This document shows, piece after piece, positions 4,381-30,443 of a stretch of DNA of 32,000 nt (position 1 is its first letter; every line of letters starts with the position of its first letter). The stretch comes from Nonlabens ponticola (lineage in GTDB: Bacteria; Bacteroidota; Bacteroidia; Flavobacteriales; Flavobacteriaceae): assembly GCF_003966335.1 (NCBI RefSeq), contig NZ_CP034549.1:210001-242000 (forward strand). The letters are read 5' to 3'. The notes beneath the pieces are model-generated. The model was not told where the DNA came from. It ran no database searches and was given only the letters and a program-made list of their open reading frames with translations. The position numbers and the translations under genes are program-made.

Positions 4381-4810
4381 GGCTATAGAAACATATAGCG
4401 TGCGACATCCGGTTTTGCGCACTGGACGACCTGTAGAAACATGCAAGATGGATGGTGACGATCTAGAAAGCACCATTCATTTGGGTGCTTATGATGGTGA
4501 TTTGCTTGTTGGCGTGACCACATTGCTACTCGACTCAATTGCAGAATTAGATTACCTAAACCATTCCAAAGAAAAAACTTACCGCATGCGTGGCATGGGC
4601 GTACTTGCCAACCAACAAGGAAATGGTATTGGAAGAAAAATCGTAGAACATGCCGAAAACTTATTACGCGATAATGGGATCAAATTGCTATGGTTCAATG
4701 CTCGTATCGTTGCCATACCATTTTACTTGAAATTGGGCTTTATCAAATACGGTAACCAGTTTGATGTGCCCAATGTTGGGCCTCACTATAATATGTATAA
4801 AGAATTATGA
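4361..4810 (+). CDS. GNAT family N-acetyltransferase
   Basis: 149 aa. RGMGVLANQQGNGIGRKIVEHAE matches the Q/RxxGxG/A acetyl-CoA motif. It overlaps the upstream gene by 20 nt and the downstream gene by 4 nt (ATGA). Confidence 0.8.
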   Translation: MTIKEIEAIETYSVRHPVLRTGRPVETCKMDGDDLESTIHLGAYDGDLLVGVTTLLLDSIAELDYLNHSKEKTYRMRGMGVLANQQGNGIGRKIVEHAENLLRDNGIKLLWFNARIVAIPFYLKLGFIKYGNQFDVPNVGPHYNMYKEL

Positions 4811-5517
4811 GATCATTGTTGCTATTACTGTTTTCATGCACGGTTATGACTCAAGCTCAAATGAATGTTGACGATCTGACTGGCCTTGCCGCAAACCCGG
4901 CCAATAAATTGGAGCAACTAACGCAGCTCGCACTAGACAAAATCACTGCTGCGGCTGCAAAAGAAGGTATCAAGATCCAGCTGGTATCTGGTTACCGTAG
5001 TTTTGCTAGACAGCGTTCTATATGGAATCGCAAATACAAACGCTACCAGTCTCAAGGACTTGAACCTGATGCAATCTTTGATAAGATCGTGGAATATTCG
5101 ACCGTGCCTGGAACATCAAGACATCATTGGGGTACTGATGTAGATCTTATTGATGGCAATGCGACTTATTCCGGCGATGTTCTAGTTCCCGATAAATTTC
5201 ACGGCGACGGTCCTTTTTGTGAATTCAAGGACTGGATGGAAGCGCATGCTAGTGATTATGGTTTTGAATTAGTTTATACCAATGCTGGAAATCGCTCAGG
5301 TTTCAAATATGAGCCTTGGCATTATAGTTATGCACCCGTATCTAAAGATTATCTAGAGATCTACAATGAGAAAATGGAGTTTGTAACCTTCCTAAGATCA
5401 CAAGACATCATGGGAATGAATGATATTAGTGACGATAGATTACTGCGATATTTTAAAGAACATATTAATGGTGTAAATCCCAGTTTGAAAACTACAACTA
5501 CAAAAAGAAAAGAATAA
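4807..5517 (+). CDS. Peptidase M15 family D-alanyl-D-alanine carboxypeptidase (VanY-like), secreted
   Basis: Signal peptide MRSLLLLLFSCTVMTQAQ. Zn-ligand and active-site blocks SGYRSFARQ, SRHHWGTDVDL and EPWHYSY are typical of M15B/VanY enzymes. Confidence 0.8.
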   Translation: MRSLLLLLFSCTVMTQAQMNVDDLTGLAANPANKLEQLTQLALDKITAAAAKEGIKIQLVSGYRSFARQRSIWNRKYKRYQSQGLEPDAIFDKIVEYSTVPGTSRHHWGTDVDLIDGNATYSGDVLVPDKFHGDGPFCEFKDWMEAHASDYGFELVYTNAGNRSGFKYEPWHYSYAPVSKDYLEIYNEKMEFVTFLRSQDIMGMNDISDDRLLRYFKEHINGVNPSLKTTTTKRKE

Positions 5518-10000: not shown

Positions 10001-13000
10001 GTGGCTCCTAATATTGGTTCACCACTAGCATCTGTAACCTTACCAACTATGAAACCAATTTCTGGTTTGAAGTTTATAAATTTTCTCTGAATTCCTCTTT
10101 TGTAATTGCCATAATAGTAATCGAAGTTCTCGAAACTTAAACCATGAAGATTAAAGGATTCCCTATCATCGTTAAGTGTAGGCTTAGGATTCTGTAAAAA
10201 GTGATAGAAGACATTAATCGATTGTGAAGCCAGCAAGCTTCTAGGCTTTTCAATTTCAAGTACACCTGCATAATTATAAAGACCTATACCTCGCCATGCT
10301 TTGGTAGCAAACTCGTCAAGACTCTTATCATACATACTGGCAAGAACCTCAGCTTGCATGCTGGTTTTATCTTGATCTTTTATGGTAAATGACCATTCTT
10401 CTGGCTCGCCTGGATAAAGCTTTTGTCTAAAGGTTTGTGTTGCAATGGTAAATTGCTGTCGTGGCGCGACAGGTTTGGTAACTTCAAATTGCTGGCTTGT
10501 AAATTGTCCTAGCTTTTGCACACTGTATTGAAACTTCAACGTTCTCCCATTGATGTTTTTCATCGGGAAACTCATCGTGGTCTTACCGTTGTTCAAATAA
10601 ATCCAACGAGTATCAATTACTTTTTTGAGATCATAGGTTGTCAAATACATGAACACACCATCAGCCGACGTATAAAAATCAACGACAGCTTGATCATCGT
10701 TGTAAATAGCACTATGAGTTACAATTGATGGTTGTGCCGGCCGGTCTTTATTTGCCCATATCTCTACGTCTCGTTTTTCATCTACAAAATCTTCTTCTTT
10801 TTCCAGACTCAGGTTGTTGTCTGCTTCTACTGCTTTAGCGTATAGAATGTAGGTGCCATTTTTCCATTCTCTAGTGATCGGTAATTCAATCGTTGCTAAG
10901 GAATCAGTGGTAGTAGTTTTTTTGAAAAGTATAGGTGCGTCTTTCCAGTCTTCTAGTTGCTCTTCTTTTCTCAATTCTGCATATGGGAACATTTTACGAT
11001 ATTCCTCAACAGATAATTCATGGAATTTTGCATCATTCAATTGATCCTCGATAACGACGTGATCAGCTGCTGATGATCGGCGCACCTGCAATTCAATATT
11101 TGCTTTTACAACTTCACCATTGAGGTTTTGTGCTTGAAGTTTTACGGTATTATTTTCTACCGATATAGGTCCTTGCACTAACATTTTAATCTCGATAGGC
11201 TTCTCACCTACTCGCACGCCGGTATATGCTTTTCTAGTCTCGCCGTTGACATCAGTTACCGACACGTCAATCGTATAATTGTAGATCAGGTTTCTCAGGT
11301 CTACATCATTGGCTATTTTCTCACCTGATTTGAAAGTGATGTCAAATTTTCCAGAGGCATCGGTAGTGATAGTATCAGTTGCAATAATGGGATCTGGCTC
11401 ATGAGAATAAGTACGTCTCAAGTATGGAATATTATCTGAATCTGGTACATTATGAATCGCTTGAGTGACATTATATATTACTTGAGCGCCAGTAATATTA
11501 CTACCTAACAGTGCCTTTGCTTTTCCCGTTACCGTAACTGAGTCACCAAAAACATACGTCTGGGTTACCGGTTCAAATTCTGTCTTAAAGCGAGGACGTT
11601 TGTATTCCTCAACTTTGAAAGAAACGTAACCAGCGTCAAAATCATCAATGAGATCCCAATAAGAATCCTCATCATCATAATCTATATCTATGGAAAATGA
11701 ACCCGTCAATCCATCTTCAGGAAGTATAAATGAGCCGTTGACACTACCGAATTCATTGGTTTCAACTGCTGTCTCAAAAACTTCATCACCAGAGGCATTA
11801 TCAACTGTCACAGTTAATTTTTTGTTTGATACAACTTTGGATTCACCATTCTTGTTTTCTACGAGAATGCTTTTGTAGTAAACTTTTTGCCCTGGTCGGT
11901 AAATGGCTCTATCTAGGTAGGTGTAGACTTTTACATTTCGGTAATCACTTTCTCTGTATTTACTAAAATAACCACGACTCAATGAAGTCCTTACCGTGTC
12001 ACCCTGGTTAATGGCTTCCAGCGAATATTGATAATACCGTCGAGGTAATGTGAAATCTACCTGACCATTTTTATCCGTTTTACCATGGAAGGATGTATAA
12101 CTCTTATTGCCTCTGTAAATGTTATATGAAACGTTAGTAAGTGGTTTTCCTGTGTTTCTTGAGGTAGCGGTGATGGTAGTTTGATTACTTGTCATACTAG
12201 TCGTCAAGGCGATATCAGTTACCTTCAATACAGAACCCGCTTTCATTTTCTTTTGGTCATTGGCATTTAAAAGGACTAAGTATGTTCCCATATCCATTCC
12301 AGACAACGCAAACTCATAGGTATGTAAAAACGTATCATCGCCTTGTGGCAAATTCAATTTCTTGATTTGAGCAAAATTATTTTTCTCACGCGCCTTTTGA
12401 AAATATGCGTTGTGAATAGAATCTCTATTTCCTTTGATGCGGTCAAAATCGTGTGGTACCCTGATAAAATAGACGGTTGCGTGGGTTACGTTTTGGTAAC
12501 TAGTTACACCTCTATAAGGTTGATTAGGCAATACGTTTTGTTGCAGCTGTGTACTTAATTTAGGTGCGTAGATGATGGATAGCAGATTAGTGCAATTCAC
12601 GCTACCCAAGGTTTCTGGATATTTCTCGATTGCGGATTTTGCAAGCTTAATGGCATTGGTACGATAGGCTTTTTGTTCTTCTGTCTCACCATTCTTAGAA
12701 ACCGTATAATAATATTGTGCTAGGCTATATTGCAACAATGTCACCTCTGGCACCGCAGCGTATTCATAAATGAGGTGTTGAATACCGTTCTCAAATTCTG
12801 CAATTTCTTGACTGCTGCTTATTTGTGATCGAGCATAATTGAATCGTTCATTGATAATTGATAAAAATGGTGCCGTTTCCTTACGTTTTTTGTGCAGCTG
12901 TTCTAGTTGGGCATATAATCGCAGGACATCATATTTACTGTAAATTGTGTCGTTTACTGGCCTTTTAAGATTCAGTATCTCTTGAGTAGGCAGGAAGGCG

Positions 13001-13653
13001 TTTGAAACTGTAAGAGTGAACGCGTCCTTAGGCATTGTGATTCCGTAAGCACTGGTTTTGTAAAATTCCAGCGCTTCTTGCGCGAGAATATCCAGCAAAC
13101 TAGGTCGATACTTGCGTGATAGCGGATTGATATTCATGATCACATCATAATCGCCGGCAGGAACTTTGGCCAGCTTGTCTGATTTTTCAAGTGACGCTTG
13201 AAATAAATCAGAAAGTCGAGCATAAAATGTCTTGATATCCCACGTCTTAAAATCATCTCCAGCATCATCCATGGCTGTGCGGTTATTGATGCGATAACGA
13301 TTTGCCGTCAAGTATTGCTCTAACAATTGTGCCTTGAGCGAGATGTAAATATTGCTTTCTGGAAACGAGCTTCCATCAATTTGCTTATCAAGCTCATTAA
13401 TGATGTTTACTTGAGCATTTTCTACATTGATCAATTTGAATTTTGATCTAAACAAAAAGACTTTGATCAATTGAGCATCGTCATTTTTGCGGTTGGCTTT
13501 CTTGTAGATGTTGTCTAATATCTCACTGGCGTCAGTGATATTATTCTCAACTTCAAGCTTCTCGACTTTACGCCACAACTCGTTATAATCCTGCGCTATT
13601 ACAGCATTAATTCCACAAAGTAACACAACCAGACCTGCAATAAAATTTCTCAT
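7075..13653 (-). CDS. Giant alpha-2-macroglobulin family protein with thioester motif and an internal CarboxypepD_reg + TonB-Plug (SusC-like) module
   Basis: The track ORF opens GTG-TTG-TTT-ATG. I take the ATG at 13653 (MRNFIAGLVVLLCGINAVIAQ, a signal peptide). The thioester-type motif YEHECAEQT places CAEQ at 8701..8712. The C-terminal region is A2M-complement/receptor-like. Residues around GKVTDASGEPILGATVIVSG...VVVTGYRTTS...LQGQVAGLEI...IRGAASL...PLYIVDGK...IQEVAVLKDAGATAIYGSRGSNGVIIISTKEG (about 9460..10053) match SusC N-terminal modules. Confidence 0.85.
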   Translation of the reverse strand: MRNFIAGLVVLLCGINAVIAQDYNELWRKVEKLEVENNITDASEILDNIYKKANRKNDDAQLIKVFLFRSKFKLINVENAQVNIINELDKQIDGSSFPESNIYISLKAQLLEQYLTANRYRINNRTAMDDAGDDFKTWDIKTFYARLSDLFQASLEKSDKLAKVPAGDYDVIMNINPLSRKYRPSLLDILAQEALEFYKTSAYGITMPKDAFTLTVSNAFLPTQEILNLKRPVNDTIYSKYDVLRLYAQLEQLHKKRKETAPFLSIINERFNYARSQISSSQEIAEFENGIQHLIYEYAAVPEVTLLQYSLAQYYYTVSKNGETEEQKAYRTNAIKLAKSAIEKYPETLGSVNCTNLLSIIYAPKLSTQLQQNVLPNQPYRGVTSYQNVTHATVYFIRVPHDFDRIKGNRDSIHNAYFQKAREKNNFAQIKKLNLPQGDDTFLHTYEFALSGMDMGTYLVLLNANDQKKMKAGSVLKVTDIALTTSMTSNQTTITATSRNTGKPLTNVSYNIYRGNKSYTSFHGKTDKNGQVDFTLPRRYYQYSLEAINQGDTVRTSLSRGYFSKYRESDYRNVKVYTYLDRAIYRPGQKVYYKSILVENKNGESKVVSNKKLTVTVDNASGDEVFETAVETNEFGSVNGSFILPEDGLTGSFSIDIDYDDEDSYWDLIDDFDAGYVSFKVEEYKRPRFKTEFEPVTQTYVFGDSVTVTGKAKALLGSNITGAQVIYNVTQAIHNVPDSDNIPYLRRTYSHEPDPIIATDTITTDASGKFDITFKSGEKIANDVDLRNLIYNYTIDVSVTDVNGETRKAYTGVRVGEKPIEIKMLVQGPISVENNTVKLQAQNLNGEVVKANIELQVRRSSAADHVVIEDQLNDAKFHELSVEEYRKMFPYAELRKEEQLEDWKDAPILFKKTTTTDSLATIELPITREWKNGTYILYAKAVEADNNLSLEKEEDFVDEKRDVEIWANKDRPAQPSIVTHSAIYNDDQAVVDFYTSADGVFMYLTTYDLKKVIDTRWIYLNNGKTTMSFPMKNINGRTLKFQYSVQKLGQFTSQQFEVTKPVAPRQQFTIATQTFRQKLYPGEPEEWSFTIKDQDKTSMQAEVLASMYDKSLDEFATKAWRGIGLYNYAGVLEIEKPRSLLASQSINVFYHFLQNPKPTLNDDRESFNLHGLSFENFDYYYGNYKRGIQRKFINFKPEIGFIVGKVTDASGEPILGATVIVSGNDDSVTTDFDGNYKIKANIGDTIEYTFSGYDEKTITAGSLVQNAVLSASLEAVVVTGYRTTSRRMSNVASTTISSDMEEVQAESALQGQVAGLEIITSSGQPGANSMVKIRGAASLNGSAEPLYIVDGKIVDEATFKALNPNDIQEVAVLKDAGATAIYGSRGSNGVIIISTKEGVTAADLANQAAAFQQIEVRKNLNETAFFLPELYTDKDGNLKFSFTSPEALTLWKFRLFAHNKQAQTAQFEGLVRTQKELSLVPNPPRFLRETDTIRFSTKIANLSGKIMNGKATLQLFDAITMQPIDEKLGNNKSVKNFDAPINGNASVDWTFHVPIGTQAVTYRVLATAGNFSDGEENTLPVLTNRMLVTESRALWVRSGETASVTMDKLANTTSSTRANHQLTFEYTSNPSWYAIKSLPYLMEYEHECAEQTFSRFYANSVAAHVLNSNPKVKDVFDSWAANDGLKSNLEKNEELKSIILAHTPWLRDAQSEAEKQQRLATLFDLDKTAREKKKILAQLEAKQLSSGYFPWFSGGSKSEYITRHIAAGIGHLNQLNINDGDRPQTDRMYNNAIKALDKDWKDRFERHLRNNKTLDKFNFGMSYWHYQYARSFGNDNSLSGLLKDGRELAFAKAKSSYSSQSIYQQLLMAISLYRNGQQQLAQKIVEGLPQTAVNSPENGMYWKENTNGYNWYSSDIETQALAIEVFTELDRDKKEVEELKVWLLQNKRPNRWKSTKATADATYALLLQGNKWLDVKENTQIKWAGKAIPDSLMNAVQKEAGTGYFKVSLNDKAVTPDYATVEVKNKSEVPSYGGLYWQYFENLDKITIDDDLPMSVKKKLFKKINTDTGQKLIPITANDPLTIGDLITVRIEIRSTKDLDFVHLKDMRASGFEPVDVLSKYKYHDGLGYYQSTKDVATNFFFDQLRPGTYVFEYDVRAYNAGQFSNGITQLECMYAPEYSSHSEGIRVVIEE
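8096..8109. repeat. Palindrome copy 3, GCTTTCGCGAAAGC
   Basis: Exact match. Left flank ATTTT, right flank TAAC. Lies inside the minus-strand A2M gene, where it reads AFAKA. Confidence 0.97.
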
Positions 13654-13764
13654 AAACAACACTTAACTTTTAAAAATACTCAATCTCACGATGAACTGTC
13701 AATGGATGCTGGCACAATTAGCATACCGCATCTGCTTTGGTATCCTTTTTGATATTTTTGAAAC

Positions 13765-15694: not shown

Positions 15695-17065
15695 ATGCGC
15701 GTACACTTTATCGCGATAGGCGGCAGCGCCATGCACAATCTTGCTATTGCCCTACACCTTAAAGGCGACCAGGTTACTGGTAGCGATGATGCGATTTTTG
15801 AACCTAGTAAATCAAGACTTAAAAAACATGGTCTCCTACCAGATACTATAGGCTGGGATAACTCGCGCATCGACGATTCTATAGATGCCGTGATATTGGG
15901 AATGCACGCTAAGGAAGATAATCCAGAATTGCTCAAGGCACAGGAACTGGACTTGAAAATCTACAGCTATCCTGAGTATCTATACGAGCAATCCAAAAAT
16001 AAAACGCGCGTCGTTATAGGTGGATCGCACGGTAAGACCACTATTACTTCAATGATTCTGCACGTGATGCATTATCACGATAGAGAAGTTGATTATATGG
16101 TAGGTGCACAACTAGAAGGTTTTGAAACCATGGTACACCTTACTGATGATAATGAATTCATGGTACTGGAAGGCGATGAGTATCTCTCGAGCCCCATAGA
16201 TCGCAGACCTAAGTTTCATCTTTATCAACCTAACATCGCTTTAATCTCTGGTATTGCATGGGATCACATCAACGTATTTCCTACCTATGAGAACTATGTA
16301 GAGCAGTTTGAGATCTTTGTAGATCTCATGAAACCTGGTAGCATTCTCGTTTATAATGAAGAAGACAAGGCAGTCAAACAAATTGCAGAAGAAGCCAGAA
16401 AACCAACCAGAAAACATGCCTACAGTGTTCCAGATCATAGCATTGATAACGGTAAAACCTTTCTAGAAACACCAGAAGGCGATATGCCGCTGGAGATTTT
16501 TGGAAAGCACAACCTGAGTAATCTTGCAGGTGCCAAATGGATTTGCCAACACATGGGCATCGACGAAGATGCCTTTTATGAAGCTATCGCGACTTTTAAA
16601 GGTGCCTCAAAACGTCTTGAAATGGTTGCTGAAAGCAGTTACAGTGTTATTTATAAAGATTTTGCACACTCGCCTAGTAAGGTAAAGGCAACCACAAACG
16701 CCATACACAATCAGTACAGCGAGCGCAAGATCATAGCTTGTCTGGAACTACACACGTTTTCAAGTCTGGATCCTGTGTTTTTACAGGAGTATGCGAATGC
16801 GCTGGATTGCGCAGATGTTGCCGTAGTTTTTTACAGTCCAGAAGCGGTTGAGCTCAAACGCCTAGAACCTGTAACTGCGGAACAAATCAAAGAGGCCTTT
16901 GATGATGAGAACCTCATCGTCATGACAGATCCTGCGGCATTTAAAAGCTGGCTGTTTTCGCAAAACCTGAATCAAGCAGCCTTGCTACTCATGAGCAGCG
17001 GCACTTATGGTGGTTTGGATTTTGACAGATTAGGAAGCCTCGTGGATCCTTTAAGCAAGCGATAA
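15695..17065 (+). CDS. mpl: Mur ligase family protein, Mpl-like (UDP-N-acetylmuramate:L-Ala-gamma-D-Glu-mDAP ligase type)
   Basis: 456 aa with blocks collinear with E. coli Mpl: MRVHFIAIGGSAMHNLA, VTGSD, the GGSHGKTTITSM P-loop, EGDEY, WDHINVF, FAHSPSKV and LELHTFSS. I cannot exclude that it is a MurC-type paralogue. Confidence 0.75.
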   Translation: MRVHFIAIGGSAMHNLAIALHLKGDQVTGSDDAIFEPSKSRLKKHGLLPDTIGWDNSRIDDSIDAVILGMHAKEDNPELLKAQELDLKIYSYPEYLYEQSKNKTRVVIGGSHGKTTITSMILHVMHYHDREVDYMVGAQLEGFETMVHLTDDNEFMVLEGDEYLSSPIDRRPKFHLYQPNIALISGIAWDHINVFPTYENYVEQFEIFVDLMKPGSILVYNEEDKAVKQIAEEARKPTRKHAYSVPDHSIDNGKTFLETPEGDMPLEIFGKHNLSNLAGAKWICQHMGIDEDAFYEAIATFKGASKRLEMVAESSYSVIYKDFAHSPSKVKATTNAIHNQYSERKIIACLELHTFSSLDPVFLQEYANALDCADVAVVFYSPEAVELKRLEPVTAEQIKEAFDDENLIVMTDPAAFKSWLFSQNLNQAALLLMSSGTYGGLDFDRLGSLVDPLSKR

Positions 17066-22301: not shown

Positions 22302-23252
22302 ATGATATACCGTCTCTTTTTAATCTTATTTCTAGCTGGAACCCTTGCCACTAGCGCAGCCGATAAATTACCAATGGTAGATATGTCTGTTGAGAGTAAA
22401 GAGGTTCTAACTTTTCAAAATGCTAAGCTCCAATTGAATCTTAAAAATCAATTGATGGCTAATCCAAAGTGGAGATCGCTTATCAATCAAAAGCGCTTAT
22501 CGTTAAGTATTGTCGATCTCAATGATCCAGATAACATTAAATACGCGAGCATCAATGGTGCAAACATGATGTATGCAGCTAGCTTGCCGAAAATCGCAGT
22601 ATTATATGCGGCCATGGACGCCATCGAGAATGGTGAACTAAAAGACACACCTAAAGTGCGTCAAGACATGTGGCTCATGATATCTAAGTCAAATAATGCA
22701 GCGTCTACACGTATGATTGACCGAGTAGGTTTTCAGAAAATCGAAGACTTGATGTGCGATCCTACAAATCCATTTTATGATAAAGATGGTGTTGGTGGAT
22801 TGTGGGTTGGTAAACGATATGCAGCCCAAGGAAAACGCAATCCAGAACCTATCAAAGGTTTAAGTCACGCTGCCACTACAGACGCTGTTGCAAAATTTTA
22901 CTACCAACTTGCTACTGGTCAATTGATCAATGAGCAACGCAGTAAAGAGATGCTAGACATCATGGAAAATCCTAGCCTGCACCACAAGTTTGTGAATACG
23001 CTTGATCGTATTGCACCACAAGCACGCTTGTTTAGAAAAAGTGGATCATGGAGAAACTGGCACAGTGATTCCATTCTGGTTTGGGGCGACAATGGACGCA
23101 AGTATATTCTTGTGGCGTTGGTAGAAGATCCTGCAGGTGAAAACATTATTAGAAGTTTAGTAAAGCCAGCGGAATTGGCGATGCGCAAATCTGTTATCTT
23201 GCCTACACTACTTGATACAGAAGATGGAGCAACTATCCAACAGGGTACGTAA
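22302..23252 (+). CDS. Secreted serine hydrolase, class A beta-lactamase fold
   Basis: Signal peptide MIYRLFLILFLAGTLATSAA. Motifs occur in the canonical order: S-x-x-K (ASLPKIA), S-x-N (SKSNNAAS) and K-S-G (RKSGSW). Confidence 0.75.
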   Translation: MIYRLFLILFLAGTLATSAADKLPMVDMSVESKEVLTFQNAKLQLNLKNQLMANPKWRSLINQKRLSLSIVDLNDPDNIKYASINGANMMYAASLPKIAVLYAAMDAIENGELKDTPKVRQDMWLMISKSNNAASTRMIDRVGFQKIEDLMCDPTNPFYDKDGVGGLWVGKRYAAQGKRNPEPIKGLSHAATTDAVAKFYYQLATGQLINEQRSKEMLDIMENPSLHHKFVNTLDRIAPQARLFRKSGSWRNWHSDSILVWGDNGRKYILVALVEDPAGENIIRSLVKPAELAMRKSVILPTLLDTEDGATIQQGT

Positions 23253-26049
23253 AATATTTGACATTAGGAGTGGCGAGCTTTCGATCTCGTTGCTCATGCA
23301 ACTATACATTTTCTTAATCATAAGTGCATTGCTCGTAGTAAAACCTACGGTCAATGCACTTTTTCTTTCTGAGCTAGGAGCGGATGCTCTTGCCGAGGCT
23401 TTTATTATAATCGCAGTTGCCGCTGTAGTAGGTTCCTTTCTATATAATAGATCGCTTGAGCGCTTTAAACTCAAGAAACTTATACGTGGTACATTAATCG
23501 TTTTTACGGTTATTTTTTCCATCATGGGCGTGCTCGTCATGCTGGGCAATTTCGGGCCTATTCTTGCCTATTTTTTCTATACGACCGTCGCACTATTTGC
23601 GTTGCTGGCGACCTCCCAATTTTGGGTGATGGCAAATGTGGTCTTCAACGTACGTGAGGCCAAAAGACTTTTTGGTTTCATAGGAGCTGGTGGTATTGCC
23701 GGTGGTATTGTAGGTGGTTACATGACATCATTGCTAGCTGAATCGTTAGGAAATGGAGCCTTATTGATTATTGCTGCTGTTTTGATCGCATCATGTATTT
23801 GGGTGATGAATGCCATTTGGCGTACTCGAGTCAATAAGTTGAGTAGTTTTAAGCGCAAGGAACGAGCTACGGTAAGTAGTGAGAATAGCGTCAAGCTTAT
23901 CCTTAATTCAAAGCATTTGACGGCTCTTGCGGCGGTAATTGGTATAGGTGTTCTTGTCGCAAAGCTTGTTGACTATCAATTTAGCTATATATCATCGCGA
24001 GCGATTCCAGATTCACAGGAATTGGCATCCTTTTTTGGTTTCTGGTTCTCGACATTTAATATTGTATCGTTAGCAATACAGCTATTTATAACCAGACATA
24101 TTTTATCTCGATCAGGTGTTAGCGCAAGTTTAGGAGTGCTGCCGTTGGGATTAGTATTGTGTGGCATTGCCCTACTATTAGTTCCAGAACTCTGGATCGT
24201 TGTCGTTATGAAAGGTCTAGATGGTAGCCTTAAACAATCATTGCATAAAAGTGCGGTAGAACTGCTTGCCTTGCCCATCCCTAGCGATGTAAAAAATAAG
24301 ACCAAAACCTTCATCGATGTAGTTGTAGATAGCCTTGCCACAGGCCTTGCTGGATTGATACTCATATTTATTATACGCGCCTTTGACCTAGCACCAGCAT
24401 ATATAACCGTACTCATCATTCTACTGGTAGTGGCTTGGGTGATCATGATTATTAAAGTGCGCGACGCCTACTTTGGTACATTTAAAGAACAGATCATTAC
24501 TCGTGAGCAAATTAAGCTAGAGAAACGATCCAATACGCGCATACGTAATAACATGCGCGTCATTTTTGAATCTGGTGGTGTTGAAGATATCATGTACATG
24601 CTTGCTCGCGTACCAGAACTAGCCCATAAGTCGCTTAAGAATCCGCTGGTCAAATTACTTGTGCACAAAAACCCAAAAGTTAAAGCAGCTGCGATACGAC
24701 AACTTAAGCACGTAGATCGTGGTCAGCCTTTAGGTCAAGTTCAAGATTTGATCTATGAAAAAAATGACGAGGTCGTTCTTGCAGCGATGCAATACCTCAT
24801 GTCTAAGGATACTAAATATCCTGAACAATTCTTTGAAGCCTATCTAGATCACGAGAGTGATTATATCTCAAGTGCCGCGCTGCTATGCCTTGCCCAAGAG
24901 ACTGAGGATAATCCAAAATTAGCATCAAAATATAATCTTGACCTGCGCATCAATCTCTTTCTAGATGAACTGGATCGCCATGAGGACAACTTCCGTAAAG
25001 GTGAGATCATTGAATTAATAAAGGCAATAGGATATGCCAAAGGTGACAACCGCCACAAGTTTATACTGCGCTATCTTAAAAATCCTGATGAGGATCTTCA
25101 TAAAGCAGCCTTGGTCGCTGCAGGAAACACTTCTCATGAACGATTTCTTCCTATTTTACTCGATGAATTAAAGGAAGCACGCTTTCGCGAAAGCGCAATC
25201 AAAGCCATCTCATCCTATGGCAACAGCATTATCAATTATTTAAAAAAGCGTTACACTGACCCTAGCGCAGCGCTGGCTCACAAGAAATACATTCCAGATG
25301 TGTTGATAGATCTGGGAACTAACAAATCTCTGCGTGCGGTATTGCAATTGACTCAATCCGGTAGCCCAGAGATACGCACGCGTACCACCGACAAATTATA
25401 TAATTATAAAAAGGCCAATGGTGATTTAGAAATACCACAAAAAATATATGCCCGATTGATACGTCAGGAATGTGATGAATACATGACATTACAGCAATGC
25501 TATTACAGCCAGCGCGTGGTAGAGCGTTCTAAACTACATCCTGAACGTGTTATAGATATAACTGAGACAGGCTCACGTGAAGAGCTGATTAAACTTTTAT
25601 CTAAACGTATGGATGACGGTATCAAGCGCATCTTTAATATCCTTGCATTGCATTTTAATACAAGGGATGTCTTTATCGCTTTTAAAGGATTGACTAGCGA
25701 GAAAAAGGAAACAAGATCTGCGACGCTAGAGTTTATGGAAGGATTGATAACGCGCAACTATAAGTCACTACTCTTTCCAATATTAGAACAAGGTATCAAT
25801 AATGCAGAGATAGATCCCAACACAGTTGCTGATCGCGTACAACTATTAGAAGAAGATAAATGTTACTTACGAATGCTGGATACGGAAGATCGCAAGCTAG
25901 GATTACTTACCATCCAGATTATTGCAGATTCTTCAAATAAAAAGTGGTTGCCCATACTTGTACGAGCAACCACTAATAAGGATTCTAAAATCGCTGCCGC
26001 TGCATCGCGTGCCTACCAGCAAATGAGCGGTGTTTCACGCACCGCGTAA
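23224..26049 (+). CDS. Polytopic transporter (ATP:ADP antiporter/Npt-like, MFS-type) fused to a C-terminal HEAT-repeat domain
   Basis: The track start at 23212 is TTG. I take the ATG at 23224 (MEQLSNRVRKIFDIRSGELSISLLMQLYIFLII...). About 12 hydrophobic helices fill the first ~430 aa. About 500 aa of helical repeats follow (NPKVKAAAIRQL, NDEVVLAAMQYL, DEDLHKAALVAAG, ESAIKAISSYG, SPEIRTRTTDKL, DSKIAAAASRAY). The N-terminal pattern resembles the COG3202 Npt1/Npt2 family, recalled from memory. Palindrome copy 7 encodes RFRES. Confidence 0.7.
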   Translation: MEQLSNRVRKIFDIRSGELSISLLMQLYIFLIISALLVVKPTVNALFLSELGADALAEAFIIIAVAAVVGSFLYNRSLERFKLKKLIRGTLIVFTVIFSIMGVLVMLGNFGPILAYFFYTTVALFALLATSQFWVMANVVFNVREAKRLFGFIGAGGIAGGIVGGYMTSLLAESLGNGALLIIAAVLIASCIWVMNAIWRTRVNKLSSFKRKERATVSSENSVKLILNSKHLTALAAVIGIGVLVAKLVDYQFSYISSRAIPDSQELASFFGFWFSTFNIVSLAIQLFITRHILSRSGVSASLGVLPLGLVLCGIALLLVPELWIVVVMKGLDGSLKQSLHKSAVELLALPIPSDVKNKTKTFIDVVVDSLATGLAGLILIFIIRAFDLAPAYITVLIILLVVAWVIMIIKVRDAYFGTFKEQIITREQIKLEKRSNTRIRNNMRVIFESGGVEDIMYMLARVPELAHKSLKNPLVKLLVHKNPKVKAAAIRQLKHVDRGQPLGQVQDLIYEKNDEVVLAAMQYLMSKDTKYPEQFFEAYLDHESDYISSAALLCLAQETEDNPKLASKYNLDLRINLFLDELDRHEDNFRKGEIIELIKAIGYAKGDNRHKFILRYLKNPDEDLHKAALVAAGNTSHERFLPILLDELKEARFRESAIKAISSYGNSIINYLKKRYTDPSAALAHKKYIPDVLIDLGTNKSLRAVLQLTQSGSPEIRTRTTDKLYNYKKANGDLEIPQKIYARLIRQECDEYMTLQQCYYSQRVVERSKLHPERVIDITETGSREELIKLLSKRMDDGIKRIFNILALHFNTRDVFIAFKGLTSEKKETRSATLEFMEGLITRNYKSLLFPILEQGINNAEIDPNTVADRVQLLEEDKCYLRMLDTEDRKLGLLTIQIIADSSNKKWLPILVRATTNKDSKIAAAASRAYQQMSGVSRTA
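25181..25194. repeat. Palindrome copy 7, GCTTTCGCGAAAGC
   Basis: Exact match. Flanking C and G extend it to 16 bp. Lies inside the HEAT domain of the plus-strand transporter gene, where it reads RFRES. Confidence 0.97.
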
Positions 26050-26052
26050 TTA

Positions 26053-27300
26053 CTATGAATCTTCTCGTATAGCTTTATCGATCGCACTTGCTAGATACAT
26101 GTGATCGCTTGCACTATTCTTCCCTAATATATTTGACATCAAACAGACGATGTAATTGGTTCCATCTGGATGCTCTACCATGATTACACTGTTCATGTAA
26201 TTGAAGTTCGTACCCATATACTTGCCGCCACCACCACTGTAGTAACTACCAGACTTAAAATATACCGCTGCATCATTCAATCTTGAGCTGTAGGCATAAC
26301 GTATCCTACGATCTGTCATATACATTAATCGCTTTAATTCAAGGCTTGTTTGCTTGTCTACAATATTGCCTTTTTCCAGCTCGATGAACCATTTCATAAG
26401 ACCTTTAGGTGTACCAATACTGCCGCCTTCACGACCCACGTATTTATTAGCACCACTCGTGAAGAATTTACCTAGTCTCCACTCGTCCTCACCTATTCCC
26501 ATTTCTCTTAACGGGTCATTTACAAGACCTATAGCAATATCAGTAAGCTCACCGCGATCTGCGTTGTCAAAAAACTCGTCTGCTTCTTCTTGTGTGAGGT
26601 CAAAGTATTGATCCCCAAAAATATTCATCAACAATGCTTCTCTCCATACAATACTAGCAGCGCCGTTATTACTAACACTTAGCATGTGATCAACCCATTC
26701 ATATAGGCTAAATTCATCACTTGCTACTACTTTTCTCTTTACAAAACGATCTTTTTCTGGATCGTAAACAGGAACCGTGTGATGGTCATACAAACCCCAA
26801 TTTCCAGCGCGCACTACTTTGTTTTTCATAAGTCGCGTACGCACCCCAAAATCTTCTGGGCACAATTTGCCCAGCTGAGTAAAAAAGGCTGTTGCCACGG
26901 CTAGTTTACCAACGCTTCCTGGTTGAAAACCTTGGTTCTCGTTCATCTCTGCATAGCGCGTATTATCAGGATCTGTAATATCTAATACGGTAATCGCATA
27001 ACCGCTACGTCGAGGAAACAATCGCGTCATTTTATCTTGAAAAGTCTCATCGACCGTCATGAATTTCTCTGTTGCTGTAGAATCCATGGTGGTAGAATCT
27101 TCACATAACCATAGATTGAATTGATCGTGTAGCTTGAAAGAGCCTGGTCTTAGGTAATACTCGGTAATCGTACTATCTAGCGTTTTTTCGAGACGCTTTA
27201 ACCGTTTTATACCAGTCTTTTCATATCCATCGATTGGATAAAAAGCCATGGTAATTACGGCTATGAGTAATACTGCTGGTATTGTTATTTTGTTTCTCAA
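26053..27300 (-). CDS. Secreted or membrane-anchored serine hydrolase, class A beta-lactamase fold (paralogue of 22302..23252)
   Basis: 415 aa. The start codon is TTG at 27300, overlapping the upstream TGA (TTGA). N-terminal hydrophobic anchor ITIPAVLLIAVITMAF. Motifs S-x-x-K (GSVGKLA), S-N-N (VSNNGAAS) and K-S-G (FKSGSY). Confidence 0.75.
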   Translation of the reverse strand: MRNKITIPAVLLIAVITMAFYPIDGYEKTGIKRLKRLEKTLDSTITEYYLRPGSFKLHDQFNLWLCEDSTTMDSTATEKFMTVDETFQDKMTRLFPRRSGYAITVLDITDPDNTRYAEMNENQGFQPGSVGKLAVATAFFTQLGKLCPEDFGVRTRLMKNKVVRAGNWGLYDHHTVPVYDPEKDRFVKRKVVASDEFSLYEWVDHMLSVSNNGAASIVWREALLMNIFGDQYFDLTQEEADEFFDNADRGELTDIAIGLVNDPLREMGIGEDEWRLGKFFTSGANKYVGREGGSIGTPKGLMKWFIELEKGNIVDKQTSLELKRLMYMTDRRIRYAYSSRLNDAAVYFKSGSYYSGGGGKYMGTNFNYMNSVIMVEHPDGTNYIVCLMSNILGKNSASDHMYLASAIDKAIREDS

Positions 27301-30215
27301 GATTTTATCTTTTTATGTAAGTATAATTCGGTATTCAAATTGACATCTTCATCAATGGATGATAGGTACTCAGAATTAGTGGCTTGATCATTCTCTACAA
27401 ATGGTCTTATCTGGAATAAATAGAGCTTATCATCCTTGAAGCCCAATTCAATATCCCACGCTCCTTTATAAGAACCATTCTTTGATCCAGGCATGGTGGC
27501 GTGAGCTTCCTTGGCAAATTCTCTGATCGTTTTAAGGTCCTTTTTTGTCAGGATACTGTTGTCAAAATCCACATGCTCCATAACAGATCCACCAGTGTCT
27601 GGCAATCGTCTACGCTTATTCTCACGTGCTGGTGAGATTAATAGACCATCGCCATCTTGATTGACTAAATATGTTTCTGCAGCTTGACCATCAACCGCAC
27701 CACCAGCGCCACGACTCATGGCAACGGTTACACTATTCTCGTCGTTGTTGATAAAGTCTTTAGTAATCAAAACACCGCTGTAATCCACATCTACTGTAGG
27801 AATAATTAAGATCGATGGATAAACATTTTCAGGATTTTCAAGATATGCCTGTCTCCATTTAAAGCTGCGCTCCGTGTAAGGTGATGCCCATACATCCTTG
27901 ATTCCTTTAATGATTTTCTCGCGCTCAACTGCGTTAAAAACAGTTAGATTCAGTCCAGCGCCGGTAAACTCTTCTAGGTCTTCCATATTGGTATCACTAC
28001 GCAAAAACACAGGTACATCACCCATGGAACCACCCAATACGTTTTTAAAATCACTTTCCAGCTGACCTAAAAATGCTGGTTTCAATTCCATCTTATTGAT
28101 GGCATCTCTCAACTTAGAAAATTCTGCTAGCTGGTATTTGATGACCTCTGATTCGTCGAGATCATTGCCTCGCATGGTTTCTGCGGTTTTGAAAATCTCA
28201 GTTAGATATTCCCAATACGTTTGACCACGATCAGGCATTTGTTGATTCATGTGATCTTTGAATACACCAAAGGGTATTACAATCCCATTAACTACGTGTT
28301 GCGGGAACAGTTGCTTCAGCTGCCCTAGATTGGCGGCTTTTGGACCACTTAAAATTCCACTGTCCGCGCTGCTCACCTCACTCATATTAAGCGGCATAGT
28401 GCCGTTTAATTTTAATTTGCCTTCTGGAATGCGTATAGTTTTCTTTTCTTTTCTTTCAGAGCCAAAAAGATCGCGTTCCTCGCCACTCATCTCATCGACC
28501 TCTTTGAGAACCACAGTTCCTCGCGGACTCACCGCATAGAATACTTGCTTACCATCTAGCGACTTTAAATCATCGAGATTGTCAGTAGAGATGGCCGCAT
28601 TAGGTATTCCTAGATTACGAGCCAGCAATTGAACGTGAGACACTAAGTTACCTTCACTAACAGTTGCGATACCGGCTACAGGTTTCAAATCACTCGGTGG
28701 TCTGTCAAAAAGGTAGATCTTGTTAGGATCAACGGTCATGCCTTCGGCATTTCCTTCCACTACGACTAATTCGCCTTTAGCATATCCAGCATTCAGTCCT
28801 CTTATGGTACTAGCGTTATCTACAGCCTGTACTTGGCTTGTCAATCCTATTTGTCTTGAAACTAGCGCGCCAAGGTTGCCAATGGCATCACCCAGCGGCA
28901 ATAACAAAGAACTACGTATGCGATCGTCGAGGAAACCATAAGCTTTAGGTTCAAATTCCATATAACGCTCCACATCATCACCGTAAATAGCATTTACCAT
29001 TCCTGTACCCCATTCTACCTGACTGCGTGCAGCGCTGATAAATTTGAGTAACTCGCTAGCCTTGATTGTCTCACCTTCTGCTTTGAATAATTGATTTTCA
29101 ATAGCATTCCATTCCCATTGCTCTACATATCCAGCTGCTGCCAGCGCTTCACTCAAGGAATGAACTTTATCCAGGTGATCTTGCAATGTCTCTGGTTCCC
29201 ATTGTGCGGTTTTTTGAAAAATTAGTTCTTCCAGTCTCAAGCTCAATTCTAGAGCAGATGTTCTGCGAGTTCCGCGTTTATCATCCTTTATATTCGTGCG
29301 TATATCGCACATCAAGTTTGCCGTAGCAGGTATCAATACAGATGGATTTGTCTCATTAGAGTAGGATTGAGAAAACTGTTCAGCTTGCTTTCTAATATAT
29401 GAATCCTGTGGCCAATCGCTCACCATTTTTTGAAGCTCAGAGACTGCAACAGGTTCAAAAAATTCCTGCATAATGTCAACGAGCTTGTCAAATTCTTCTC
29501 GTTGCTTAAAGCTTAACTTCTCATTGTTTTCCTTTACCCATTCCTGTACAGCGATGATATCTTTAGCCTCTGGATTACCATGTATTTTGATACGTATGTC
29601 CATGAACTTAGGGTGACGCTCTGCAAGTGTTTTACTCAAACTGCGCACTTCTTGTGCGAGGTTTGTATCACCATCATGCGGTAGATCTCTTAAGCTTTCA
29701 CGCACTAGAAAGAAGTCGCGATCAATAATCTCATCGCTGCCTAAAACGGTATAATAAAACTTGCGACCCCATTCCTCTTCATCCTCAATTTGTTTGGCAC
29801 CTCGATAAAACCTACTGCGCTCTTGTATCCAGCCATTGTCGGCAGCAACCAGGAAATTATTAAGTTGGTATTGCTTTAAACGGCTGTGGTTATTCGGGCC
29901 GTCCCAGAATTCCCATAAATCTGCAGATGCCAGTATCTCACCAAAGAAGATGTGCTCTTTGTCTGCAAGACGCTTGACCTCATCCTTATAACTTGCATGC
30001 TGGATGCCACCACCTATGGCATCTGGACATGGATCCTTAGAGCCACGGCGCGATCCATCGGCACAGAACCATTCTATACGCTTGTACGGTCCACGATCCA
30101 GTTGCCTGTAATCGTCGATCATCGCCTCAATACGGTCGTTTGTAAATTCTTGAGCAGTTGATTCCAGACAGCAGCACGCCATCAATAAAATCAGTGGTAG
30201 TAACAATTTATTCAT
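27297..30215 (-). CDS. PEP-utilising enzyme family protein: signal peptide + unknown N-domain + swivel His domain + C-terminal PPDK_N ATP-grasp domain
   Basis: The track ORF starts at TTG 30380. The internal ATG at 30215 gives a canonical signal peptide, MNKLLLPLILLMACCCLESTAQ. The swivel domain is GIATVSEGNLVSHVQLLARNLGIPNA, with the His codon at 28635..28637. ATP-grasp blocks are GPKAANLGQL, LRSDTNMEDLEEFTGAGLNLTVFN, VWASPYTERSFKWRQ, RGAGGAVDG and WDIELGFKDDKLYLFQIRP. Confidence 0.8.
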   Translation of the reverse strand: MNKLLLPLILLMACCCLESTAQEFTNDRIEAMIDDYRQLDRGPYKRIEWFCADGSRRGSKDPCPDAIGGGIQHASYKDEVKRLADKEHIFFGEILASADLWEFWDGPNNHSRLKQYQLNNFLVAADNGWIQERSRFYRGAKQIEDEEEWGRKFYYTVLGSDEIIDRDFFLVRESLRDLPHDGDTNLAQEVRSLSKTLAERHPKFMDIRIKIHGNPEAKDIIAVQEWVKENNEKLSFKQREEFDKLVDIMQEFFEPVAVSELQKMVSDWPQDSYIRKQAEQFSQSYSNETNPSVLIPATANLMCDIRTNIKDDKRGTRRTSALELSLRLEELIFQKTAQWEPETLQDHLDKVHSLSEALAAAGYVEQWEWNAIENQLFKAEGETIKASELLKFISAARSQVEWGTGMVNAIYGDDVERYMEFEPKAYGFLDDRIRSSLLLPLGDAIGNLGALVSRQIGLTSQVQAVDNASTIRGLNAGYAKGELVVVEGNAEGMTVDPNKIYLFDRPPSDLKPVAGIATVSEGNLVSHVQLLARNLGIPNAAISTDNLDDLKSLDGKQVFYAVSPRGTVVLKEVDEMSGEERDLFGSERKEKKTIRIPEGKLKLNGTMPLNMSEVSSADSGILSGPKAANLGQLKQLFPQHVVNGIVIPFGVFKDHMNQQMPDRGQTYWEYLTEIFKTAETMRGNDLDESEVIKYQLAEFSKLRDAINKMELKPAFLGQLESDFKNVLGGSMGDVPVFLRSDTNMEDLEEFTGAGLNLTVFNAVEREKIIKGIKDVWASPYTERSFKWRQAYLENPENVYPSILIIPTVDVDYSGVLITKDFINNDENSVTVAMSRGAGGAVDGQAAETYLVNQDGDGLLISPARENKRRRLPDTGGSVMEHVDFDNSILTKKDLKTIREFAKEAHATMPGSKNGSYKGAWDIELGFKDDKLYLFQIRPFVENDQATNSEYLSSIDEDVNLNTELYLHKKIKS

Positions 30216-30316
30216 TGTCTCAAAAATATGTTTATCCACAGCACGAGCACCGCTGTTTAAGAGCAGTTTAACTCGCTGTAGTGCTCCATAGTTGCGATGA
30301 TGATGGTGGTTATTTT

Positions 30317-30330
30317 GCTTTCGCGAAAGC
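30317..30330. repeat. Palindrome copy 8, GCTTTCGCGAAAGC
   Basis: Exact match. Left flank ATTTT, right flank GTAAC. It lies in the probable divergent promoter region 30216..30443, and only the unlikely TTG-extended ORF would translate it (LSRK). Confidence 0.97.
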
Positions 30331-30443
30331 GTAACTTTCCTACAAAAATTTAAAAACGAATAACCCGTGATCAAAGTCAATATTACCCTTTAATTAACAT
30401 GGCATGTTTGACAAGCGATTTACCTTAAACCAAAAATTTAACC

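What the first reader, a model, noticed from the sequence alone, without database searches (positions are those of the whole stretch)
27297..30215. Domain-permuted PEP-utilising enzyme with a signal peptide and no PEP/pyruvate TIM-barrel
In PEP synthase and pyruvate phosphate dikinase the order is ATP-grasp, then swivel His domain, then a C-terminal TIM barrel. Here the order is signal peptide, a roughly 450-aa unassigned N-domain, the swivel domain (SHVQLLARNLGIP, His at 28635..28637), and then the ATP-grasp (GPKAANLGQL ... LYLFQIRP) at the C-terminus. No barrel is present. The unassigned N-domain, which has four Cys within WFCADGSRRGSKDPCPD and the CCC in the signal region, is the likely substrate-binding module.
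Basis: partly seen in the sequence, partly recalled or inferred. Interest (0 to 1): 0.7.

Follow-up and report, generated by a model that had tools for sequence, protein, structure and literature searches.

The report
Exported dikinase paired with nucleotide transporter
This gene encodes an uncharacterised, apparently periplasmic ATP-using phosphotransfer enzyme that travels across bacterial phyla with an ATP/ADP-carrier-like transporter and two penicillin-binding-type enzymes, which suggests an unexplored ATP-driven chemistry outside the cytoplasm.

Summary
Window 27297..30215 (-) encodes a 972-aa protein, 100% identical to a Nonlabens ponticola protein. Its order is signal peptide, a roughly 440-aa unassigned N-domain, a swivel His domain (H527), then a C-terminal PEPS/PPDK-type ATP-grasp. 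There is no TIM barrel. Two details are wrong: the WFC..PCP motif has two Cys, not four, and the CCC is specific to this species.

The order is permuted relative to PEPS/PPDK, but it is the order of plant glucan water dikinases. The N-domain models confidently (pLDDT 94.5) as a mostly helical fold. It has no PDB, Pfam or NCBIfam relative and occurs only in this architecture.

The main new result is context. The gene is always followed by a class-A-like serine enzyme. It usually sits beside a TLC/NTT (ADP/ATP-carrier-like) transporter and a second such serine enzyme. This four-gene module recurs in Flavobacteriaceae, Gemmatimonadota, Margulisbacteria and other distant contigs. Signal peptides, the catalytic His, ATP-grasp residues and a Cys pair are conserved family-wide.

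Best reading: a periplasmic "X, water dikinase" fuelled by transporter-delivered ATP. The substrate is unknown. It is a new variant of a known kind, with high interest.

The parts
27297..30215 (-). Dikinase-like gene, 972 aa plus stop codon. 100% identical to the Nonlabens ponticola 'PEP/pyruvate-binding domain-containing protein'.
30153..30215 (-). Sec/SPase I signal peptide, residues 1-21, with predicted cleavage STA|QE. This exposes an N-terminal Gln, as in the Bacteroidetes Q-rule.
   Evidence: Alignment (Q22 in at least 90%). SP-like N-termini in about 77 of 82 representatives. Q-rule described in PMC5837995. The cleavage site is inferred, not predicted by a dedicated tool.
28830..30152 (-). 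N-domain, residues 22-462. It has 19 helices plus a small 3-stranded sheet that carries the conserved Cys pair: C51 (30063..30065) and C63 (30027..30029). It is the candidate substrate and phosphoryl-acceptor site.
   Evidence: AF2 pLDDT 94.5, pTM 0.89. No PDB fold match (best E=0.26, TM<0.2). No Pfam or NCBIfam hit. Found only in proteins of about 970 aa. Near-invariant residues: C51, D53, C63, Q72, H73, W129, R138, Q142, E144, E146, R191, R208, H212, R306.
28416..28829 (-). Swivel phosphohistidine domain, residues about 463-600. The catalytic H527 lies at 28635..28637 in the motif EGNLVSHVQLLARNLGIPN.
   Evidence: H527 is conserved in 81 of 85 distant relatives.
27366..28346 (-). ATP-grasp nucleotide-binding domain (Pfam PPDK_N), residues 624-950. 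Key residues are K626, R739/S740, E745/D746, E923, Q935 and R937.
   Evidence: Pfam E=3.8e-25. Foldseek match to RPH 5hv1, E=2e-14. Profile match to PEPS 8a8e, E=4e-35. The key residues are conserved in 82-84 of 85 relatives.
26053..27300 (-). BLa, a 415-aa class-A beta-lactamase/PBP-fold serine enzyme with an N-terminal hydrophobic signal or anchor. Its start overlaps the dikinase stop codon.
   Evidence: Pfam Beta-lactamase2, E=2.8e-8. Directly downstream in 80 of 83 loci; the 3 misses are contig ends. SxxK, SNN and KSG motifs are conserved.
23212..26049 (+). TLC/NTT-type (ADP/ATP-carrier-like) transporter fused to C-terminal HEAT repeats, 945 aa. It is convergent with BLa, and the two stop codons lie 3 nt apart.
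   Evidence: Pfam TLC, 51 bits against a cut-off of 21, plus HEAT_2. PDB 9j3j plastid ADP/ATP carrier, E=1e-11. Adjacent in 66 of 83 loci. In the reciprocal test the dikinase lies nearby in 42 of 52 loci.
22302..23252 (+). BLb, a 316-aa second class-A-like serine enzyme with a signal peptide. It lies immediately upstream of, and overlaps, the transporter gene.
   Evidence: Pfam Beta-lactamase2, E=8e-22. Upstream of the transporter in 64 of 66 metagenomic loci. SxxK, SxN and KSG motifs are conserved.

Best explanation
The gene encodes an exported (periplasmic) 'substrate, water dikinase' of the PEP-utilising and GWD mechanistic type.

Proposed cycle: the C-terminal ATP-grasp binds ATP. The swivel domain's H527 takes the beta-phosphate, releasing AMP and Pi. 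The domain then swings to the helical N-domain, where the phosphate passes to a bound acceptor.

The enzyme sits outside the cytoplasm. Its nucleotide is therefore supplied, and AMP/ADP/Pi retrieved, by the co-inherited TLC/NTT-type carrier. The two co-inherited PBP/class-A-beta-lactamase-fold serine enzymes, both also exported, act on the same envelope substrate before or after phosphorylation.

The acceptor is unknown. My leading guess is a periplasmic cell-envelope molecule such as a peptidoglycan-derived peptide or glycan.

Shown: the architecture, residue conservation, export signals and gene linkage. Inferred: the direction of ATP transport, periplasmic activity and the substrate.
For: 1. 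Catalytic competence. PPDK_N has E=3.8e-25. The ATP-grasp superposes on RPH, PEPS and PPDK. K626, R739, E745, E923, Q935, R937 and H527 are conserved in 81-84 of 85 relatives down to about 25% identity.

2. Export. A signal peptide is conserved across the family. The Bacteroidetes members follow the Q-rule. A near-invariant Cys pair, C51/C63, could form a disulfide. No T9SS C-terminal domain was detected. Both serine-enzyme partners have N-terminal signals.

3. Linkage. BLa lies directly downstream in 80 of 83 loci, the TLC-HEAT transporter is adjacent in 66 of 83, and BLb in 63 of 83, while the flanking genes vary. Starting instead from the transporter, BLb is present in 64 of 66 loci and the dikinase in 42 of 52. 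The same four gene types are clustered in Mesonia, Candidatus Margulisbacteria, Gemmatimonadota and three further distant metagenomic contigs.

4. The transporter is a true homologue of ADP/ATP carriers, with PDB 9j3j at E=1e-11 and shared FWxxAN..EAKR and KxKxxIDVV motifs.

5. Two lineages have lost the catalytic His. One of them, P0171, also lacks the module. This fits a catalytic role tied to the partner genes.

6. There is a mechanistic precedent for the order acceptor module, His domain, ATP-binding domain with a pivoting His domain: GWD1 (PMC13553574).
Against: No experiment exists. ATP is not normally considered available in the periplasm, and characterised NTTs import ATP rather than export it. 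The TLC match is to a divergent clade, the NTT-HEAT proteins, which are uncharacterised per PMC5381601. The transported substrate is therefore not established.

Signal peptides were judged by hydropathy and motif inspection, not by a dedicated predictor. In about 20% of loci the two gene pairs are not adjacent. Nothing in the data identifies the acceptor, so the peptidoglycan idea rests only on the PBP-like partners.
Confidence: 0.5

Rival explanations
1. A periplasmic glycan dikinase in the strict GWD sense. The N-domain would be homologous to the GWD central domain, and the enzyme would phosphorylate an imported or periplasmic polysaccharide to make it accessible to hydrolases.
For: The domain order is the same as GWD1. 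GWD1 has an all-helical central domain of about 444 aa (20 helices) that also has no PDB equivalent, and this protein has a helical domain of about 440 aa. The SHV...ARN motif resembles the GWD motif LSHVSVRARN. Pfam GWD1_pHisD gives weak hits.
Against: No CBM or other carbohydrate-binding domain is present. No glycoside hydrolase, SusC/D or PUL genes are conserved with the gene. The conserved partners are PBP-like serine enzymes, not glycosidases. The hhalign comparison of His domains gave only E=0.021 and probability 2%. Homology of the central domain could not be tested.
Confidence: 0.15
2. A periplasmic xenobiotic or antibiotic-inactivating module. The dikinase would phosphorylate a small molecule, as rifampin phosphotransferase and phenylphosphate synthase do, while the two beta-lactamase-like proteins hydrolyse it or related compounds.
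For: The closest structural relatives of the ATP-grasp are rifampin phosphotransferase (5hv1, E=2e-14) and HpeI. NCBIfam gives partial hits to RPH and PigC. The partners belong to the beta-lactamase family and keep the SxxK, SxN and KSG motifs.
Against: The module is chromosomal, vertically conserved across hundreds of Flavobacteriaceae species, and present in several phyla with stable synteny. That pattern suits a housekeeping envelope function better than a mobile resistance trait. The NCBIfam RPH score is 49.9 against a cut-off of 999. The domain order differs from RPH.
Confidence: 0.12
3. The transporter does not deliver ATP. It would move the substrate or the phosphorylated product instead. 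Alternatively, the enzyme runs in the ATP-forming direction, turning a high-energy periplasmic phospho-compound plus AMP and Pi into ATP that the NTT imports, which is a scavenging system.
For: Characterised NTTs import ATP. The NTT-HEAT clade is divergent and uncharacterised. PPDK chemistry is reversible (established knowledge).
Against: Water-dikinase reactions are strongly exergonic in the forward direction unless the phospho-compound is PEP-like, and no PEP-binding barrel exists here. The transporter retains carrier motifs shared with ADP/ATP carriers.
Confidence: 0.15
4. An ordinary cytoplasmic PEP synthase or PPDK paralogue whose N-terminus merely looks like a signal peptide, as the 'phosphoenolpyruvate synthase' database annotation implies.
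For: Several source annotations call homologues 'phosphoenolpyruvate synthase'.
Against: There is no PEP/pyruvate-binding domain and the domain order is different. NCBIfam PEPS scores are 63-80 bits against cut-offs of 598-883. The signal peptide is conserved across phyla.
Confidence: 0.03

Closest known systems
Plant and algal alpha-glucan water dikinase GWD1 and phosphoglucan water dikinase PWD (EC 2.7.9.4 and 2.7.9.5)
   Same: Same linear order: acceptor-side module, then phosphohistidine domain, then C-terminal ATP-binding domain. No TIM barrel. A large all-helical domain directly precedes the His domain. The His-helix motif is similar (SHV...ARN). The inferred mechanism is the same: beta-phosphate to His, then to the acceptor, with AMP and Pi released (PMC13553574).
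   Different: This protein has no CBM45 or CBM20. It is bacterial and carries a Sec signal peptide rather than being plastidial. Its Pfam GWD1_pHisD match is below threshold. Homology of the helical domains is untested. Its partners are a TLC transporter and PBP-like enzymes rather than starch-metabolism genes.
PEP synthase and pyruvate phosphate dikinase (PEP-utilising enzymes)
   Same: Homologous ATP-grasp (PPDK_N) and swivel His domain, with conserved catalytic residues.
   Different: The order is reversed (His before ATP-grasp). The PEP/pyruvate TIM barrel is absent. An unrelated helical N-domain takes its place. The protein is exported.
Rifampin phosphotransferase (RPH) and small-molecule water dikinases such as phenylphosphate synthase and HpeHI
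   Same: These provide the best structural matches for the ATP-grasp (5hv1 E=2e-14; 9goj E=5e-13). They share the design logic of a non-barrel acceptor-binding module plus a swivel His domain.
   Different: RPH is ordered ATP-grasp, RIF-binding domain, His. These enzymes are cytoplasmic. The NCBIfam RPH score is far below its cut-off. The comparison with phenylphosphate synthase rests on my own knowledge and was not tested here.
NTT-HEAT nucleotide-transporter fusions (Major et al. 2017, PMC5381601), the family of the neighbouring gene
   Same: The neighbour has exactly this architecture: a TLC domain plus C-terminal HEAT repeats. In the Gemmatimonadota locus it is followed by a cNMP-binding protein, as that paper describes.
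   Different: That paper reports no function and no linkage to a dikinase. Here the transporter is tied to an exported dikinase. In some distant lineages the HEAT domain is absent.

Membership tests
PEP-utilising enzymes (PEPS/PPDK) | ATP-grasp nucleotide-binding domain (Pfam PPDK_N) | tested here: met
   E=3.8e-25, 89 bits against a cut-off of 27. Foldseek and profile matches.
PEP-utilising enzymes (PEPS/PPDK) | Swivel phosphohistidine domain with a catalytic His | tested here: met
   Pfam PEP-utilizers is below its cut-off (13.8 bits against 23.1). Even so, 21 of 24 homologues hit it. The His aligns in register with PEPS and PPDK. H527 is present in 81 of 85 relatives.
PEP-utilising enzymes (PEPS/PPDK) | C-terminal PEP/pyruvate-binding TIM barrel, and the order ATP-grasp, His, barrel | tested here: not met
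   No barrel domain hit. The protein ends about 20 residues after the ATP-grasp. The N-domain is helical. NCBIfam PEPS scores are 63-80 bits against cut-offs of 598-883.
Glucan/phosphoglucan water dikinase (GWD/PWD) | Order: acceptor module, then His domain, then C-terminal ATP-binding domain | tested here: met
   compared with the GWD1 description.
Glucan/phosphoglucan water dikinase (GWD/PWD) | Starch-binding CBM45 or CBM20 modules | tested here: not met
   No CBM hit at E<=1. The N-domain starts directly after the signal peptide.
Glucan/phosphoglucan water dikinase (GWD/PWD) | GWD-type phosphohistidine domain (Pfam PF22973) | tested here: inconclusive
   E=0.079, 13 bits against a cut-off of 27. 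Only 4 of 24 homologues reach E<0.1. hhalign against GWD His exons gives E=0.021, probability 2%, with the His in register.
Glucan/phosphoglucan water dikinase (GWD/PWD) | Homology of the helical domain to the GWD central domain (PDB 9HA9/9QVI) | not testable with these tools
   The Foldseek PDB library (entries to April 2026) returned no match. Whether it contains 9HA9/9QVI is not known. The protein database held only short exon fragments of GWD.
Rifampin phosphotransferase | Order ATP-grasp, RIF-binding domain, His, and the NCBIfam equivalog score | tested here: not met
   The order differs. NF041857 scores 49.9 bits against a cut-off of 999.
TLC/NTT nucleotide transporters (neighbouring gene) | TLC domain homologous to ADP/ATP carriers | tested here: met
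   Pfam TLC, 51 bits against a cut-off of 21. PDB 9j3j, E=1e-11. The transported substrate was not tested.
Class A beta-lactamase/PBP fold (neighbouring genes BLa and BLb) | Beta-lactamase2 domain with SxxK, SxN and KxG motifs | tested here: met
   Pfam E=2.8e-8 and 8e-22. The motifs are at least 95% conserved. The Omega-loop general base and actual beta-lactam hydrolysis were not tested.

The most novel reading that the evidence does not exclude
Many diderm bacteria run a dedicated ATP economy in the periplasm. In this reading an NTT-type carrier, including the long-unexplained NTT-HEAT fusions of free-living bacteria, exports ATP to an exported swivel-His dikinase. That dikinase phosphorylates a cell-envelope substrate, which two PBP-like serine enzymes then handle. 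The family may also be the bacterial relative from which the plant starch dikinases (GWD/PWD) took their helical-domain, His, ATP-grasp core.
Probability: 0.35. Interest if true: 0.9.

Novelty: new variant of a known kind. Interest (0 to 1): 0.75.

Why it matters
ATP-dependent enzymes are not expected in the periplasm, so envelope chemistry is thought to rely on pre-activated donors. A widespread exported dikinase that is genetically tied to an ADP/ATP-carrier homologue would challenge that view.

It would also give the first testable function for NTT-like transporters in free-living bacteria, which has been an open question since Major et al. 2017. It would point to an unknown phosphorylated envelope molecule. 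Finally, it would define a new acceptor-domain fold and a possible bacterial relative of the plant starch dikinases.

Tried and rejected
1. Ordinary PEP synthase. Rejected: there is no barrel, the order is wrong, and NCBIfam scores are far below the cut-offs.

2. N-domain as a known fold. Foldseek against the PDB, a family profile against PDB sequences, Pfam and NCBIfam all found nothing.

3. Direct comparison with GWD.
   - A 23-aa recalled motif was too short to use as a query.
   - A padded query and a 66-aa GWD-like query returned only plant exon fragments of 60-116 aa.
   - The central domain therefore could not be compared.
   - hhalign of the His domains was inconclusive.
   - The GWD paper has no supplementary text on file.

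4. Lipoprotein reading of LMAC|C. Rejected: the Cys residues are absent from all homologues.

5. Known anti-phage defence system. There were no PADLOC hits apart from a weak HEAT match.

6. Riboswitch or other RNA element. There are no Rfam hits in the window.

7. ECF sigma/anti-sigma pair as part of the module. It is present only in the Mesonia, Leeuwenhoekiella and Salegentibacter loci, 18 of 88.

8. Literature searches for a periplasmic dikinase, for the function of NTT-HEAT proteins, or for this gene cluster found nothing relevant.

9. The PDB has no close sequence relatives of BLa or BLb.

Full report
**What is at the coordinates.** The ORF listing reports an ORF at 27297..30380 on the minus strand. 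The in-frame ATG at 30215 (MNKLLLPLILL...) matches the N-termini of all homologues. The product is therefore 972 aa. It is 100% identical to a Nonlabens ponticola protein annotated 'PEP/pyruvate-binding domain-containing protein'.
- Pfam places PPDK_N, the PEPS/PPDK ATP-grasp, at residues 624-950 with E=3.8e-25.
- Pfam gives only sub-threshold hits for a swivel His domain at 510-576: PEP-utilizers E=0.046 and GWD1_pHisD E=0.079.
- NCBIfam gives partial, far sub-threshold hits to PEP synthase, PigC/RedH and rifampin phosphotransferase. All of them fall on the ATP-grasp.
- Residues 1-500 match nothing.

**Is the His domain real?** Several lines say yes.
- phmmer against PDB sequences aligns 'EGNLVSHVQLLARNLGIP' with 'EGGRTSHAAIVSRELGIP' of PEP synthase 8a8e.
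- A family profile matches PPDK residues 401-464 at E=0.019.
- 21 of 24 homologues hit PEP-utilizers at E<0.1.
- The AF2 model shows a beta-rich domain with the His at the start of a short helix.
- Across 85 full-length relatives, down to about 25% identity in the N-domain, H527 is present in 81.
- In the same set the ATP-grasp residues are present in 82-84 of 85: K626, R739/S740, E745/D746, E923, Q935 and R937.
The catalytic apparatus therefore appears intact.

**The N-domain.** I built an 86-sequence alignment (A2) and modelled residues 23-470.
- The model has pLDDT 94.5 and pTM 0.89. It contains 19 helices and a small three-stranded sheet near the N-terminus. It is not a TIM barrel.
- Foldseek against the PDB finds nothing (best E=0.26, TM<0.2). 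The family profile finds no PDB sequence for this region.
- An exhaustive HMMER search of 1.84 billion representative proteins with the N-domain finds 452 clusters. Essentially all are proteins of about 970 aa with the domain at positions about 25-470; shorter hits look like fragments. The domain therefore exists only in this architecture.
- Near-invariant polar residues suggest a genuine active or binding site. They are C51, D53, C63, Q72, H73, D126, W129, Y137-R138-G139, Q142, E144, E146, R191, R208, K210, H212, D219, R306 and R434.
There are two, C51 and C63, present in 83 and 82 of 85 relatives. The CCC in the signal peptide occurs only in this species.

**Export.** The N-terminus has a Lys-containing n-region, a hydrophobic core of about 14 residues and an S-T-A|Q-E site.
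- Q22 is at least 90% conserved among 24 Flavobacteriaceae homologues. This fits the Bacteroidetes Q-rule for SPase I substrates (PMC5837995).
- Of 82 full-length representatives from diverse lineages, about 77 have a signal-peptide-like N-terminus. The exceptions are mostly truncated gene calls that begin at the conserved RGP(Y/F) motif.
- No T9SS C-terminal domain is detected. A periplasmic location is therefore the expectation. This was judged by inspection and hydropathy, not with a dedicated predictor.

**Gene context, the main new result.**
- Downstream, overlapping the stop codon, is a 415-aa Beta-lactamase2-family protein, BLa. Convergent with it is a 945-aa TLC (ATP/ADP-transporter family) plus HEAT-repeat protein. 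That gene is preceded on its own strand by a second Beta-lactamase2 protein, BLb, of 316 aa.
- In 83 related loci (80 from 80 Flavobacteriaceae genomes, plus three Mesonia places), BLa follows the dikinase in 80. The three misses are contig ends. The transporter is adjacent in 66 and BLb in 63. The outer flanks are not conserved.
- I ran the reciprocal test from the transporter, using 80 metagenomic loci. BLb is immediately upstream in 64 of 66 loci with room. The dikinase is within 8 kb in 42 of 52, and BLa in 52 of 65.
- The module is therefore two tight pairs, dikinase-BLa and BLb-transporter, that are adjacent in about 80% of cases.
- The same four gene types are clustered around relatives with only 25-30% identity. 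These are Candidatus Margulisbacteria, Gemmatimonadota, where the TLC-HEAT gene is followed by a cNMP-binding protein, and three other metagenomic contigs. In several of these the TLC protein lacks HEAT repeats.
- One relative, P0171, has lost the catalytic His and also lacks the module.

**The partner proteins.**
- The TLC domain is truly homologous to solved plastid and bacterial ADP/ATP carriers. PDB 9j3j matches at E=1e-11, with shared FWxxAN...EAKR and P..D.K.K.K..IDVV motifs.
- NTT-HEAT fusions are a recognised, monophyletic and functionally uncharacterised clade in free-living bacteria (PMC5381601).
- BLa and BLb keep the SxxK, SxN (SNN) and KSG motifs at 95% conservation or more. Both have N-terminal hydrophobic signals. 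They have no close PDB sequence relatives.

**Comparison with known systems.**
- Relative to PEPS/PPDK the order is permuted and the barrel is missing.
- The same order is established for plant glucan water dikinase. GWD1 is CBM45-CBM45, then a central all-helical domain (20 helices, 444 aa, reported to have no PDB equivalent), then the His domain, then the ATP-binding domain, with a pivoting His domain (PMC13553574).
- The His-helix motif here (LVSHVQLLARN) resembles GWD's (VLSHVSVRARN). The GWD sequence was recovered from plant exon fragments.
- Statistical support for a specific relationship to GWD is weak. hhalign gives E=0.021 and probability 2%.
- I could not obtain full-length GWD sequences or confirm that 9HA9 is in the fold library. 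Homology between the two helical domains is therefore untested.
- The ATP-grasp is structurally closest to rifampin phosphotransferase and HpeI.
- Overall, the protein works like a GWD- or RPH-type 'X, water dikinase'. It is not a demonstrated member of either family.

**Mechanism proposed.** After export, the enzyme uses ATP delivered by the TLC carrier. H527 takes the beta-phosphate at the ATP-grasp. It then swivels to the N-domain and phosphorylates an acceptor. The two PBP-like enzymes act on the same substrate.
- Shown: architecture, residue conservation, export signals and cross-phylum linkage.
- Inferred: periplasmic ATP supply, direction of transport, water as the gamma-phosphate acceptor, and the substrate.
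- Rivals are listed separately. They are a strict glycan dikinase, an antibiotic or xenobiotic kinase module, a transporter that carries the product or an ATP-forming direction, and an ordinary PEPS.

**Negative results.** There are no Rfam elements in the window and no PADLOC defence match. No paper in the library describes this cluster.

**Verdict.** This is a new variant of a known enzyme kind, embedded in an undescribed and widely conserved four-gene system. The biological implication, ATP-dependent phosphorylation outside the cytoplasm, would be surprising and is directly testable.

Noticed in passing
window 7075..13662 (-): A 2195-aa bacterial alpha-2-macroglobulin-like protein (MG2, bMG3, A2M and bMG10 domains). 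It has CarboxypepD_reg and TonB-receptor Plug domains inserted mid-protein at residues 1205-1393, which is an unusual combination.
   Followed up: no
P0171 (locus L084) and P0227 (locus L088): Two distant family members have lost the catalytic His. P0171 has a degenerate motif, and P0227 has SNV in place of SHV. P0171 also lacks the BL2/TLC partners nearby, so it may represent a pseudoenzyme lineage.
   Followed up: partly
L089 2058..5760 (Gemmatimonadota): The TLC-HEAT transporter is followed by a separate cNMP-binding protein. This matches the NTT-HEAT + cNBD arrangement described by Major et al. 2017, here sitting next to the dikinase module.
   Followed up: no
L090 10934..13174: In one distant locus the BLa-type protein is 746 aa, roughly double the usual length. 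It is followed on the same strand by a 433-aa TLC protein without HEAT repeats.
   Followed up: no
L001 8784..9900; the same arrangement in 18 of 88 loci: An ECF sigma factor and a putative membrane anti-sigma factor lie directly upstream of the dikinase. This occurs only in Mesonia, Leeuwenhoekiella and Salegentibacter, so any envelope-stress regulation would be specific to those lineages.
   Followed up: partly
window 30153..30215 (-): The signal peptide of this species contains a lipobox-like LMAC followed by CC (MACCC). None of the 23 aligned homologues has these Cys residues.
   Followed up: yes
window 30221..30240 (-): A TAttTTTG sequence, resembling the Bacteroidetes -7 promoter element TAnnTTTG, lies only about 6-13 nt upstream of the ATG at 30215. 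If it is functional, the transcript would have almost no leader.
   Followed up: no
window 4807..5517 (+) and 15695..17065 (+): Other peptidoglycan-related genes lie elsewhere in the window: a VanY-type D-Ala-D-Ala carboxypeptidase and a Mur ligase. They lie outside the region compared across genomes, so any link to the module is untested.
   Followed up: no
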